DNA of 64,000 bases from Escherichia coli. GTDB taxonomy: Bacteria > Pseudomonadota > Gammaproteobacteria > Enterobacterales > Enterobacteriaceae. Each line of letters begins with the position of its first letter. Within the stretch, counting starts at the first letter, position 1. Shown here one piece after another: positions 46,801 through 49,800 of this stretch. Made by a program: the position numbers. The stretch lies in the NCBI RefSeq assembly GCF_050920415.1, contig NZ_CP169309.1, one strand, 5' to 3'.

Positions 46801-49800
46801 GAACAGGTTTCTGCTGGTATGCGCCACGCTCGCGCCAGTGAGTCTCCGTTCTGGCCGTCGCCAGGGCAATTCATCAAGTGGTGTAAAGACAGCAAGATGG
46901 TTCTTGGCGTCACCATTGACGATGTGATGGCGGAGTTTCACCGGTACAGCAAGGAAAAAAGTTTATATCCTGGTGGTCCCGAAAGATTCCCGTGGCGACA
47001 TCCGGTTATGTACTGGGTCGTATGTGATACCCGCCGTGCAATGTATCAGCGCCAGCTTAGCGAGATTGAGGTTGAGAAACACGCGCGCAGGCTGCTCGAT
47101 GATTGGGCGAAAAAGGTGGCTTCCGGACAGCAGATACCCGATCCGGTGATCAGCATACAGGCAAAGCCAGAGCCCATGAGTACGCCTCCGGACACAGGGA
47201 GAGACGTTTACCATCCACCAGGGCGAAGTTTCGGGTGTATGCCTAACGCCGCCACCCTGGGGGGAATAACACCGGCGCAGTGGCTAATGGAGGAATACAG
47301 GCGGGGAAAGGCGGCAGGATTTATCAAGTAATACCAGCGCGATAGCGCATTTTTTTACGTCTCAATAATTACCTATAAGGTAACAAAATATTCTAAACTC
47401 TATTGATTTAGTGTCTTATGTGGTTTTTAATTACCTCAGAGGTAAATCATGAGAAAACAGATACAGGCTCTTGGTCGACTCAAAACAGGCCAGATGAACA
47501 AAACAGAATCTGCGTATTGCCAGCACCTTGAGCAGCGTAAACGTGCAGGGGAAATCGCCTGGTATCGATTCGAGGGTATCAAGCTGCGGTTAGCTGACAA
47601 CACGTTCTATACGCCCGATTTCGCTGTGATGCTCGCCACCGGCGAGATGGAGCTGCACGAAGTGAAAGGGGGATTCTGGACCGATGACGCCAGAGTGAAA
47701 ACCAAAGTCGCCGCAGATCAGTATCCGTTCCGAATCATCGGGGTAACGGTTAAGCCAAAGAAAGCAGGTGGTGGCTGGAACATCGAAGAGTTCTGAATCG
47801 ACGATCTTTTTAGTTATCAATGTAATCAATAAGTTATGTGGATAAGCGAGGGTAAAGATGGAAAGTAATATCAAAGGGTTAGTTTCCGCCGGGCATGAGA
47901 TGGCTTCGGAACTGAAAGCAGAATGTGGTGCCGTTGATATGCGCAGTGTGGCAAAGCTGATCAGCGATTTGGCAACGCAACTGGAAGTGCAACTGGTGCG
48001 TGCTAATGCGCAGGACGAAGACAACCAGAGAGCCATTGAGTCAATTAAACAGGCTGATTCGGCTGTTAAGTTGGCACACGAGAAGTTTTCGGCGCTGGCG
48101 GCGAAACGTGCAATTCCAGCAATGGAACGCCTGTTAATGTTGCCAGCTGATGATGATTTGTTAAGTGAACAGGAACTTAAAGATTACGGTGTGGATATTG
48201 ATGCGCTCAACGCCTTCAAATTTCTGGCCGGACCAGAAACCGTGCTGGCACTACTGGATGAACGGGAAAGAAACCAGCAATACATCAAACGCCGTGACCA
48301 GGAGAACGAGGATATTGCGCTAACGGTAGGGAAGCTGAGAGTTGAGCTTGAGGAAGCAAAATCAAAACTCAACGAGCAGCGTGAGTATTACGAAGGTGTT
48401 ATCTCGGATGGAAGTAAGCGCATAGCAGAACTGGAAGCGCGGGAAATAAAACCAGCCAAAGGTGAAGTTCTGGTCGTTGTATCTGGTTTTACTGGTTGCG
48501 GAAAAAGCGCCATTGCCGGGGAAATAGAAATCGCGATGAAGGCTATTGGTGTACCGGTTAAGTGGACTAATGGCGATGCAGAAAAGCGCATGACTGGCGC
48601 TGACTGGCTGACTGCGATTGAGATGTACAAACCAACTGTGCGCATCGTGGAAGTTAATGTGCCCCGCGCCGCTGGCATTCGCATCAAAGGAAAGTGATAT
48701 GGCTAACTCATTACTTGAAACCTGCAACAACTGGCAGATTCAGAGGGCGGAGATTTTATCTCGCAATCCAGATATGGCAATGACAATCGATAATCTGGAT
48801 ACGCTAATTGAACGTACCGTGCGTTCTGCAATTGATATAGCACGTCGAGTTGACTGGGATTTCAGAGAAGCGGAGCGGCTTGCTAAAGAGCAGGAGAAAG
48901 CAGCGGGTAAAGGAGACTGATATGGATAAAAACACCACTGCTTACTGGAATCTGTCACTTGATACCGAATGCCCAAAATGCGGTCACAATTTCGATCTGC
49001 TTTGTGATGCTGATTTCTGGGAGTTTTCTGGAGCTAAACAGGCATGTGAAGAAATAAAAGGTTACGAAACATGCTGTCCAGAATGTAACCATGAATTTAA
49101 AACAGATTTCGTGTATTGAGGCATAACAAATGACCACTATTACCAGAGAACAGGCACAGAAAATTATTGAAGCAGCCGATGAGGTTATTAGTGCGCTGGC
49201 CGGAACTAACGAGGATGTTCACCCTGGTAGCGATAACATGCTACGCCTGTGGGATGACCTGAATGACCGTTACGCGCCGCCGGAAGTTGTGCGTGAGCTG
49301 GCGCGTATCGTGCTGGCATCGCTGGAAGCAGAACCAGTTGCTTATATTTTCAAACATCCGGCCGGGAAATTATTCTGGGCTTTAACGGATGAAAGCAATA
49401 AAGAGCAAGCGGACGTTATTCCTGTTTATGCTGCCGCGCCTGCGTCGGTTGTGCCGGATGATGCATCAGGGTCGCTTGCTTATGCTTACAAAGAGCTTAC
49501 GCCTGAGATTATGCGCGGTCATATCGCTGTATTCGAGCGATATGGAATAGCCCCAAACGATAGCATTACCACAATTCAGGCACTGCGAATCGCGCTGGAT
49601 GGCATAGAGCGGAGCGACGCCATGCTTCATGGTGCCGAACCCGTAAGCCAAACTTACAAGTTGAACGAGCTATCTGGCAACTATCCGGCAACTCCGGATA
49701 GTTGGATAAGCTGTAGTGAGCGAATGCCGGAAAAGAACAAGAACGTGCTTATTTCGGTGAATTTCGACAGCTCTCTGGTTGAACCGCTAATATGCTCCGC

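What the first reader, a model, noticed from the sequence alone, without database searches (positions are those of the whole stretch)
47348..47796. Operator-guarded nin-region gene: terminator, then a two-operator promoter whose second operator overlaps the RBS
After the P-like gene a small terminator (GCGC-GATA-GCGC + T7) is followed by a promoter (-35 TTGATT, -10 TTTAAT) bracketed by two perfect TTACC-N5-GGTAA sites. This is the same geometry as the P_L-like promoter. The downstream 115-aa DUF1064/RusA-like gene starts 4 nt after the operator. A repressor-controlled promoter in the middle of the replication/nin region is unusual. It implies this gene, and perhaps downstream genes up to the terminase, is independently repressor-regulated rather than antitermination-dependent.
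Basis: seen in the sequence. Interest (0 to 1): 0.5.

Follow-up and report, generated by a model that had tools for sequence, protein, structure and literature searches.

The report
Repressor-gated promoter before phage resolvase gene
In an epsilon15/phiV10-type prophage of E. coli, two binding sites for the phage repressor bracket a small promoter just before a nuclease gene. The feature is real and strongly conserved, but it is standard for this phage genus and one of the two sites is already annotated in phage epsilon15.

Summary
The window carries a Uetakevirus prophage (phiV10/epsilon15 type) inserted at guaA. TTACC-N5-GGTAA occurs 7 times, against 0.02 expected, and only inside the prophage. 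Two copies (47369-83, 47431-45) lie 62 bp apart. They bracket TTGATT-17-TTTAAT, and the last T of the -10 is the first base of the proximal site, exactly as at P_L. The proximal site contains the Shine-Dalgarno sequence, and the DUF1064 ATG follows 3 nt later.

The module aligns without gaps in all relatives examined, whether the first gene is DUF1064 or a RuvC-like resolvase. Among 66 distinct upstream regions collected by protein homology alone, the distal arms are invariant while the central 5 bp vary.

The nearby repressor is a full-length homologue of SPC32H Rep (PDB 5D50), a tetramer with two DNA-binding pairs.

Caveats:
- The "terminator" is only a 4-bp stem.
- The -10 lacks the usual A at position 2.
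- The gene is a PD-(D/E)xK-type DUF1064 protein, not RusA.
- Nothing has been tested experimentally.

The epsilon15 RefSeq record already annotates the orthologous distal site as a repressor-binding site. The feature is therefore unusual only by comparison with lambda, and its interest is low to moderate.

The parts
47337..47356 (+). Short hairpin GCGC-GATA-GCGC, then A and T7, directly after the P-like gene. It is a weak intrinsic terminator or attenuator and forms the left edge of the conserved module.
   Evidence: Sequence. The hairpin alone folds at about -7.4 kcal/mol, against -14 to -15 for the other terminators of this phage. It is not listed by the terminator scan, which needs 5 pairs. 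GCGC..GCGCATTTTTTTAC is invariant in relatives even where the upstream gene differs. The phiV10 record annotates it as a putative terminator.
47369..47383 (.). Distal repressor operator, TTACCTATAAGGTAA.
   Evidence: Perfect palindrome. Its arms are invariant in 66 of 66 distinct upstream regions collected by DUF1064 homology, while the central 5 bp vary. The orthologous site is annotated 'protein_bind repressor' in epsilon15, 35906-35922.
47403..47408 (+). -35 hexamer, TTGATT.
   Evidence: TTGA sits at offset 34 from the distal site, in exactly one orientation, in 164 of 167 paired-site modules. It is invariant in the homology-collected set.
47426..47431 (+). -10 hexamer, TTTAAT, after a 17-bp spacer. 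Its last T is the first base of the proximal operator.
   Evidence: The register is the same as AATTAT|TACC at P_L. It is conserved as TTTAAT or TTAAAT. It lacks A at position 2 and is therefore absent from the scan.
47431..47445 (.). Proximal repressor operator, TTACCTCAGAGGTAA. It covers the predicted transcription start and contains the Shine-Dalgarno GAGG (47439-42).
   Evidence: Perfect palindrome. It lies 62 bp from the distal site in every relative. 64 of 66 distinct homology-collected upstream regions have perfect arms. The ATG is always 3 nt downstream.
47449..47796 (+). First gene of the unit: a 115-aa DUF1064 protein with a PD..E-x-K motif, a probable junction-resolving nuclease.
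   Evidence: Pfam DUF1064, 26.2 bits against a cut-off of 24.7. PHROG 190 'Holliday junction resolvase', E = 1.2e-43. In epsilon15 and Tyrion a RuvC-like resolvase occupies this position behind the same module. The structure model had low confidence and gave only weak hits, mostly to PD-(D/E)xK nucleases.
47858..50368 (+). The rest of the probable transcription unit: Ead/Ea22-like, small ORFs, DUF551, and the PHROG 536 'transcriptional regulator' at 50021-50368.
   Evidence: All are on the + strand. No strong + strand terminator lies between 47796 and 50418.
50418..50435 (+). Strong terminator that closes the unit, just before the terminase genes.
   Evidence: Seven-pair GC-rich stem plus a T-run. 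The 41-nt stretch folds at -16.2 kcal/mol and the hairpin alone at -13.8.
44398..44982 (-). Immunity repressor gene (Rep), whose product is inferred to bind the operators.
   Evidence: Full-length match to SPC32H Rep, PDB 5D50, E = 4e-42. HTH_3 domain. The gene is flanked by the same palindromes at P_L and P_R.
44264..44340 (-). P_L module with identical architecture: operators 44264-78 and 44326-40, and promoter TTGACA-17-AATTAT at 44306..44278 on the - strand.
   Evidence: The 62-bp spacing is conserved in all relatives.

Best explanation
The region is one of several modules with the plan 'terminator, operator, promoter, operator' that divide the early and middle region of a Uetakevirus (phiV10/epsilon15/SPC32H-type) prophage into separately repressed transcription units.

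In the lysogen. The phage repressor Rep (44398-44982, - strand) binds the two TTACC-N5-GGTAA palindromes at 47369-83 and 47431-45. The proximal site overlaps the last base of the -10 and the transcription start, so bound Rep excludes or traps RNA polymerase. The distal site lies 62 bp away (about 6 helical turns, so on the same face). It is probably held by the second DNA-binding pair of the same Rep tetramer, which would enclose the promoter in a small loop. Both steps are inferred.

On induction. In this phage group a LexA-controlled antirepressor takes the Rep tetramer apart. The weak promoter TTGATT-17-TTTAAT would then fire. It would make a transcript with a leader of about 10 nt whose 5' end is the Shine-Dalgarno sequence. 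That transcript would run from the DUF1064 nuclease gene through about 3 kb of accessory genes to a small putative regulator, and stop at the strong terminator at 50418-35 in front of the terminase genes.

The 4-bp hairpin with T7 after the P-like gene probably attenuates transcription coming from upstream without fully blocking it.

Shown here: the sites, their statistics, their geometry, their conservation and the identity of the repressor. Inferred: Rep occupancy, promoter activity, looping and the extent of the transcript.
For: 1. Motif statistics. There are 7 perfect sites against 0.02 expected. All lie in the prophage, only with the N5 spacing, and half-sites are not enriched.
2. The same motif flanks the rep gene at P_L (two sites) and P_R/P_RM. 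The epsilon15 RefSeq record annotates it as 'protein_bind repressor' at seven places, including the orthologous distal site upstream of its resolvase gene.
3. The window's repressor matches SPC32H Rep (PDB 5D50) over its full length, E = 4e-42. A later paper that discusses the original Rep study (Kim et al. 2016) describes Rep as DNA-binding as a tetramer, with the pairs that bind palindromic sites formed across dimers, and as disassembled by the antirepressor Ant (PMC9638917).
4. Architecture. Seven phage genomes collected independently of the motif align without gaps from the hairpin to the ATG, with a 62-bp operator spacing at both P_L and this site. A Klebsiella phage has the same.
5. 164 of 167 paired-site modules in viral contigs have TTGA at offset 34 in exactly one orientation. 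They fall into a P_L class and a weaker class to which this site belongs.
6. Footprint in a set not selected for the motif (80 loci found by DUF1064 homology, 66 distinct upstream regions). Distal arms are perfect in 66 of 66 and proximal arms in 64 of 66. The -35 is invariant. The central 5 bp vary at 10-50% minor-allele frequency.
7. The first gene can be DUF1064 or a RuvC-like resolvase, with the ATG always 3 nt after the operator. In phage F116 a DUF1064 gene 83% identical sits inside an operon with no such sites. The module therefore belongs to the regulatory backbone, not to the gene.
8. The candidate promoter on the opposite strand (47417..47390) is not conserved in relatives.
Against: - No experimental data for this site were found. 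The primary papers on SPC32H Rep and on the epsilon15 genome are not in the library, and no transcript-mapping study turned up.
- The -10 TTTAAT lacks the highly conserved A at position 2, and the -35 matches only 4 of 6. The promoter scan did not report it, so the promoter may be very weak or need help.
- The predicted leader is only about 10 nt.
- All relatives share one operator specificity. No heteroimmune covariation test between repressor and operator was therefore possible.
- The upstream hairpin is weak, so the gene may also, or mainly, be expressed by read-through.
- A 62-bp loop is tight. One tetramer per site pair is an inference.
Confidence: 0.72

Rival explanations
1. The two sites are genuine Rep operators, but there is no meaningful promoter between them. 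DUF1064 and the downstream genes are expressed by read-through from the upstream replication operon across the weak hairpin. The sites act as auxiliary Rep anchors, for long-range looping with O_R and O_L or to raise local Rep concentration, or as a roadblock.
For: The hairpin has only 4 bp, about -7 kcal/mol, so it is likely leaky. The -10 lacks A at position 2 and the scan did not call a promoter. Rep is a tetramer with two DNA-binding pairs and could bridge distant sites.
Against: The -35 TTGA and the -10 sit at exactly the same offsets as in the P_L module in 164 of 167 modules, and they are conserved while the surrounding bases vary. In a lysogen the upstream promoters are themselves repressed, so a roadblock would have nothing to stop. 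A gapless spacing from the distal site to the ATG is hard to explain without a promoter.
Confidence: 0.17
2. The palindromes at this position are used mainly by the Cro-like protein (45137-45367), or by both proteins, to turn the unit down late in infection rather than to keep it silent in the lysogen.
For: In lambdoid phages Cro and the repressor share operators (established knowledge). The window encodes a small Cro-position protein that PHROGs classes as a transcriptional repressor.
Against: Nothing here distinguishes the two binders. This reading adds to the main explanation rather than excluding it. The PY54 Cro binds only one of the repressor's operator loci (PMC4488713), which shows that sharing of operators is not universal.
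Confidence: 0.08
3. The palindromes are chance matches or byproducts of a preferred ribosome-binding context (GAGGTAA) and have no regulatory role.
For: GAGGTAA recurs as a ribosome-binding context at other genes, for example 44241-44253 and 47846-47857. The right arm of the proximal site could therefore be there for translation.
Against: 7 sites against 0.02 expected. The distal site is not near any start codon, yet its arms are invariant in 66 of 66 distinct upstream regions. The 62-bp spacing is fixed across genera.
Confidence: 0.01

Closest known systems
Predicted repressor-binding sites of Salmonella phage epsilon15 (RefSeq NC_004775 annotation) and the Rep/Ant switch of Salmonella phage SPC32H (PDB 5D50)
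   Same: The palindrome is the same, ATTACC-N5-GGTAAT. The repressor is homologous, E = 4e-42. The position is orthologous: epsilon15 site 35906-22 lies just upstream of the gene that follows the replication genes. Sites are dispersed in the same way, at P_L, before the small terminase gene and before the portal region.
   Different: The epsilon15 record annotates only the distal site. The proximal site (35969) and the promoter are not annotated there. The first gene in epsilon15 is a RuvC-like resolvase rather than DUF1064. The host here is E. coli, with the prophage at guaA. Whether Rep binding at this particular site was ever tested could not be checked, because the papers are not held.
Lambda P_L/P_R control by CI, and the lambda nin region
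   Same: A helix-turn-helix immunity repressor binds palindromic operators that overlap the -10 and the start of early promoters. The gene order is repressor, cro, replication genes, then accessory genes including a junction resolvase, then late genes.
   Different: Lambda has no operator or promoter in the nin region. Its nin genes depend on N antitermination of the P_R transcript, and its resolvase is RusA-like (Rap is separate). Here the unit has its own operator pair. No N- or Q-like family was recognised among the proteins scanned, though that scan was only partial.
Dispersed-operator repressors: phage P1 C1, mycobacteriophage L5 gp71 'stoperators', N15 CB
   Same: One immunity repressor acts at many sites spread over the genome, so that several transcription units are silenced directly. 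N15 CB binds three O_R sites and two O_L sites at the repA promoter (PMC4488713). The P1 and L5 cases are cited from my own knowledge.
   Different: L5 sites are asymmetric and block elongation. P1 operators are asymmetric 17-mers. N15 has only two loci. Here the sites are symmetric and come in pairs at a fixed 62 bp that bracket a promoter.
Paired-operator repression loops (gal OE/OI, lac O1/O3, deo)
   Same: Two operators flank a promoter, and a repressor able to hold two sites at once is available. The spacing is conserved and in helical phase.
   Different: Looping is not shown here. 62 bp is shorter than the classical loops of 92-113 bp.

Membership tests
Uetakevirus (epsilon15/SPC32H-type) Rep operator | Palindrome (A)TTACC-N5-GGTAA(T) | tested here: met
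   Both sites are perfect. The motif is the same as in the sites annotated in epsilon15.
Uetakevirus (epsilon15/SPC32H-type) Rep operator | The cognate repressor is encoded in the same element and is flanked by the same motif | tested here: met
   Rep homologue at 44398-44982, E = 4e-42 to PDB 5D50. Sites at 44264, 44326, 45038 and 45086.
Uetakevirus (epsilon15/SPC32H-type) Rep operator | Position orthologous to an annotated site, and arms conserved with a variable centre | tested here: met
   Gapless alignment with epsilon15 35907/35969. Arms perfect in 66 of 66 and 64 of 66 distinct upstream regions in a set not selected for the motif.
Uetakevirus (epsilon15/SPC32H-type) Rep operator | Binding by Rep protein | not testable with these tools
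   This needs a gel shift, a footprint or ChIP. The primary papers are not held.
Sigma-70 promoter | -35 and -10 hexamers 16-18 bp apart, with A at position 2 and T at position 6 of the -10 | tested here: inconclusive
   TTGATT (4 of 6), a 17-bp spacer, and TTTAAT (5 of 6, but T at position 2). It is not listed by the scan. It is conserved in register with P_L.
Intrinsic (rho-independent) terminator | GC-rich stem of at least 5 pairs followed by a U-run | tested here: not met
   The stem has 4 GC pairs, about -7 kcal/mol, and is absent from the scan. The U7 run is present. It may work as a weak attenuator.
Pfam DUF1064 (PF06356) | Score above the curated cut-off | tested here: met
   26.2 bits against a cut-off of 24.7, E = 1.1e-5. 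Homologues are named DUF1064 by NCBI.
RusA Holliday junction resolvase (PF05866) | Sequence match to the RusA family | tested here: not met
   No RusA hit at E <= 0.01 in Pfam. No PDB sequence hit. The weak fold hits are mostly PD-(D/E)xK nucleases, none RusA.
PD-(D/E)xK nuclease fold | An alpha-beta-beta-beta-alpha-beta core carrying D...(D/E)-x-K | tested here: inconclusive
   The motif P56-D57 ... E71-V72-K73 is conserved. The model has the right order of elements, but its mean pLDDT is 59.6. The best Foldseek E-value is 0.08.
Lambda-type nin region (antitermination-dependent) | No own promoter; expression through N-modified P_R transcription | tested here: not met
   An operator-flanked, promoter-like element is present. 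No N or Q family was recognised among the 13 proteins scanned; not every ORF was scanned.

The most novel reading that the evidence does not exclude
The lytic programme of this phage genus may have no lambda-style antitermination cascade. Instead the genome would be cut into at least five or six terminator-insulated units: P_L, P_R, a degenerate module after cro, this unit, the terminase unit, and the leftward tRNA-Arg unit. Each would be gated directly by the same Rep tetramer. At P_L and at this site one tetramer would clamp a promoter inside a rigidly conserved 62-bp mini-loop. Disassembly of Rep by the antirepressor would then release all units at once, and differences in timing would come only from promoter strength and from a small zinc-finger-like regulator encoded at the end of this unit.
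Probability: 0.35. Interest if true: 0.45.

Novelty: new member of a known kind. Interest (0 to 1): 0.27.

Why it matters
It shows that this common family of E. coli and Salmonella prophages is wired differently from lambda. The module is present in about 6% of complete E. coli genomes. The immunity repressor appears to silence directly the operon that carries a junction-resolving nuclease and a putative regulator, rather than leaving it to a transcription cascade.

Practically, the compact 110-bp module, with its fixed 62-bp operator pair, gives a defined substrate for testing how the unusual SPC32H-type Rep tetramer engages two palindromes. It also gives a reporter for prophage induction. 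It does not open a new class of mechanism.

Tried and rejected
1. Heteroimmune covariation test. I hoped relatives with different repressor specificity would carry different palindromes at this site. All relatives found (E. coli, Salmonella, Enterobacter, Klebsiella) use the same TTACC/GGTAA arms, so the test could not be made.
2. Primary literature. The SPC32H Rep papers (J Virol 2013, PNAS 2016) and the epsilon15 genome paper (Virology 2007) are not held under DOI or PMC id. The vB_EcoP_ZX5 paper defines no operators. A search for transcript-mapping data on these phages found nothing.
3. A promoter on the opposite strand (AAGACA-16-TAGAAT, 47417..47390) was rejected because it is not conserved in relatives.
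4. Structure of the DUF1064 protein. The alignment was too shallow (79-100% identity). The model had pLDDT 59.6, and the PDB fold search gave no hit with E < 0.08. PDB sequence searches for DUF1064 and for the PHROG 536 protein were empty, and NCBIfam gave nothing for either.
5. An RNA hairpin formed by the proximal palindrome that might mask the Shine-Dalgarno sequence in read-through transcripts is only about -2.6 to -4.6 kcal/mol, with z = -0.9. I dismissed it as a significant control element.
6. P_L and this module as recent duplicates. Outside the operator arms they share 26 of 58 positions (shuffle p about 0.013). That indicates a shared design, but the evidence for duplication is weak.
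Full report
**What the window is**

The region 44000-48000 is 97-98% identical to Escherichia phages phiv142-3, PAS61 and phiV10, genus Uetakevirus, the epsilon15 group. The attachment core ATTGAGTGGGAATGATT reported for the related phage ZX5 at the 3' end of guaA (PMC9782041) occurs once, at 38047-63. The prophage therefore runs from about 38047 past the end of the window.

Gene order around the finding:
- leftward early operon
- Rep repressor, 44398-44982, - strand
- Cro-position protein, 45137-45367
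- a 66-aa ORF
- DnaT-like protein, 45734-46549
- lambda-P-like protein, 46531-47331
- the finding
- DUF1064, 47449-47796
- Ead/Ea22-like protein, small ORFs, DUF551 protein
- a PHROG 536 'transcriptional regulator', 50021-50368
- terminator
- small and large terminase subunits

**Check of the observation**

- GCGC-GATA-GCGC at 47337-48, then A and T7 (47350-56).
- TTACCTATAAGGTAA at 47369-83.
- TTGATT at 47403-08, a 17-bp spacer, and TTTAAT at 47426-31.
- TTACCTCAGAGGTAA at 47431-45, which contains GAGG at 47439-42.
- ATG at 47449.

TTACC-N5-GGTAA occurs 7 times in 64 kb against 0.02 expected, and no shuffle reached 7. All seven are in the prophage. No other spacing between the arms is enriched, and half-site density is the same in host and prophage DNA. 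With one mismatch allowed, further sites appear at 45086, 45423 and 50473.

Two corrections are needed. The hairpin begins at 47337, not 47348. It has only four GC pairs, about -7 kcal/mol, against -14 to -15 for the terminators after rep, after cro and before the terminase genes. It also fails the scanner's five-pair rule. The -10 TTTAAT has T rather than A at position 2, so the promoter scan did not list it.

**Whose sites are these?**

The same palindrome occurs twice at P_L, at 44264 and 44326, bracketing TTGACA-17-AATTAT on the - strand. It also occurs at P_R/P_RM, at 45038 and 45086. These positions lie on both sides of the repressor gene.

The RefSeq record of epsilon15 annotates ATTACC-N5-GGTAAT as 'protein_bind: repressor' at seven places. 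Three are at P_L and one lies before the small terminase gene. One lies before the portal region and one between the antirepressor and tailspike genes. The seventh is at 35906-22, immediately upstream of the Holliday junction resolvase gene that follows the replication genes.

The window's repressor matches SPC32H Rep (PDB 5D50) over its whole length, E = 4e-42. A later paper that discusses the Rep work states the following. Rep binds DNA as a tetramer. The domain pairs that bind palindromic sites are formed across dimers. The antirepressor Ant breaks the tetramer (PMC9638917). From my own knowledge, not re-read here, Ant expression in SPC32H is controlled by LexA.

**Comparative anatomy**

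I examined seven phage genomes chosen by nucleotide or protein similarity, not by the motif: phiV10, SPC32H/SPN1S, Tyrion, TL-2011b, epsilon15 and BUCT554, plus the window. All have two perfect sites 62 bp apart upstream of the first gene after the replication genes, and two sites 62 bp apart at P_L. The regions align without a single gap from the hairpin to the ATG. A Klebsiella phage with the same early region also has the pair.

The P_L and 'nin' modules share one plan:
- a terminator;
- about 12 nt;
- the distal operator;
- CTATTGA at offset 34;
- a 17-bp spacer;
- a -10 whose last T is the first T of the proximal operator.

A pattern scan of viral contigs for the paired sites returned 167 occurrences. 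In 164 of them TTGA lies at offset 34 in exactly one orientation. They fall into two classes:
- a P_L class, mostly TTGACA with AATTAT;
- a weaker class, TTGATT or TTGAAA with TTTAAT or TTAAAT, whose start codon always lies 3 nt after the proximal site.

In the weaker class the first gene is either DUF1064 or a RuvC-like resolvase.

That set was selected for the operator arms, so I made a second set by DUF1064 protein homology alone (80 loci, 66 distinct upstream regions). In it the distal arms are perfect in 66 of 66 and the proximal arms in 64 of 66. The -35 is invariant. The five central bases of the distal site, and the bases just 5' of it, vary with minor-allele fractions of 10-50%. That is the footprint expected of a dimeric helix-turn-helix protein that reads the arms only.

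In Pseudomonas phage F116 a DUF1064 gene 83% identical lies inside a tightly packed operon with no such sites. The module therefore belongs to the regulatory backbone of this phage group, not to the gene.

**Most likely mechanism**

In the lysogen, Rep occupies both sites. The proximal one spans roughly -7 to +8 of the predicted start and should block polymerase. The distal one is 62 bp away, 5.9 turns, and could be held by the second DNA-binding pair of the same tetramer. After Ant-mediated disassembly of Rep the weak promoter would fire. The transcript would start near 47438 and carry the Shine-Dalgarno sequence at its very 5' end.

On the + strand there is no strong terminator between 47796 and the seven-pair hairpin at 50418-35. 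The unit probably therefore covers about 3 kb and ends with the PHROG 536 protein. The weak hairpin after the P-like gene should let some upstream transcription through. Independence from read-through is therefore likely but not proven.

Rep binding, promoter activity, looping and transcript extent are all inferences.

**The gene**

The protein passes Pfam DUF1064 narrowly, at 26.2 against 24.7 bits. It matches PHROG 190 'Holliday junction resolvase' at E = 1.2e-43. It carries a conserved P56-D57 ... E71-V72-K73 motif. It has no RusA match.

A structure model from a shallow alignment was poor, with pLDDT 59.6. Its best PDB fold hits were weak, E >= 0.08, and mostly PD-(D/E)xK nucleases. The strongest argument that it is a resolvase analogue is positional. 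In epsilon15 and Tyrion a RuvC-like resolvase replaces it behind the same module, at the same start codon position.

**Comparison with what is known, and novelty**

Against lambda the arrangement is indeed different, since lambda's nin genes have no promoter of their own. Within this genus it is the rule. The orthologous distal site has been annotated as a repressor-binding site in the epsilon15 record. The hairpin is annotated as a putative terminator in phiV10.

The public records I saw do not annotate three things:
- the proximal site;
- the promoter;
- the strict 62-bp pairing and its fit to a two-headed Rep tetramer.

Other phages whose immunity repressor acts at several loci are known. 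N15 CB is documented in PMC4488713; P1 C1 and L5 gp71 I cite from my own knowledge. The module occurs in 328 of 5,426 complete E. coli genomes.

I therefore class the finding as a new member of a known kind and score it 0.27.

**Verdict**

An independent, repressor-gated unit is the best reading. 'Unusual' and 'RusA-like' are overstated, the terminator is weak, and nothing has been tested at the bench.

Noticed in passing
window 45389-45500: There is a third module of the same plan after the cro-position gene. It has a strong terminator (45389-45408) and a one-mismatch operator GTACCTTAAAGGTAA (45423-37). These are followed by TTGATC (45455-60), 17 bp, CAAAAT (45478-83) and a degenerate proximal site. 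The layout is conserved in all seven relatives, and in three of them (SPC32H, epsilon15, BUCT554) the left arm of the proximal site is a perfect TTACC. It may be the real promoter of the replication genes.
   Followed up: partly
window 50365-50495: Before the small terminase gene there is a terminator (50418-35), then TACTAT|TACC, which is -10-like with no recognisable -35. Two operators follow 18 bp apart (50455 perfect, 50473 with one mismatch), and the second covers the terminase SD and ATG (50489). A perfect 12-bp palindrome GTGACATGTCAC lies at 50365-76. This looks like an activator-dependent, Rep-gated late promoter.
   Followed up: partly
window 50021-50368 (+): The last gene of the unit (PHROG 536 'transcriptional regulator', E = 4.6e-54) encodes a basic 115-aa protein with a C-terminal CxxC...CxC cluster. 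It has no Pfam, NCBIfam or PDB match. It is a candidate late-gene regulator sitting directly before the terminase promoter region.
   Followed up: partly
window 53221-53663 (-): A leftward promoter-like site, TAGACA-18-AATTAT (53663..53634), ends on operator 53620-34 with the same -10/operator overlap. It points at a tRNA-Arg(UCU) gene (53221-97, - strand; ARAGORN, and Rfam at 72 bits) and a phage Sf6 gene 66-like ORF (52646-53017, - strand). This suggests a repressor-gated tRNA for the rare AGA codon.
   Followed up: partly
window 47357-47383, and loci L128-L207: Among E. coli prophages that are otherwise 97-98% identical, the five central bases of the distal operator and the roughly 10 bases 5' of it are hypervariable (minor-allele fractions up to about 0.5), while the arms never change. 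The cause is unexplained. It might be relaxed constraint combined with recombination, or templated mutation in a quasi-palindrome.
   Followed up: no
window 47417-47425, 47836-47844, 53677-53685: The motif TATGTGG(T/A)T recurs three times, each time shortly upstream of a GGTAA-containing ribosome-binding region. The copy after the DUF1064 gene (47836-47857) looks like a shortened remnant of the promoter-operator module.
   Followed up: no
window 38197-38211: A one-mismatch operator, TTACCTTAAAGGTAT, lies about 150 bp inside attL (38047-63), upstream of the integrase region. It is a possible Rep site near the int promoter.
   Followed up: no
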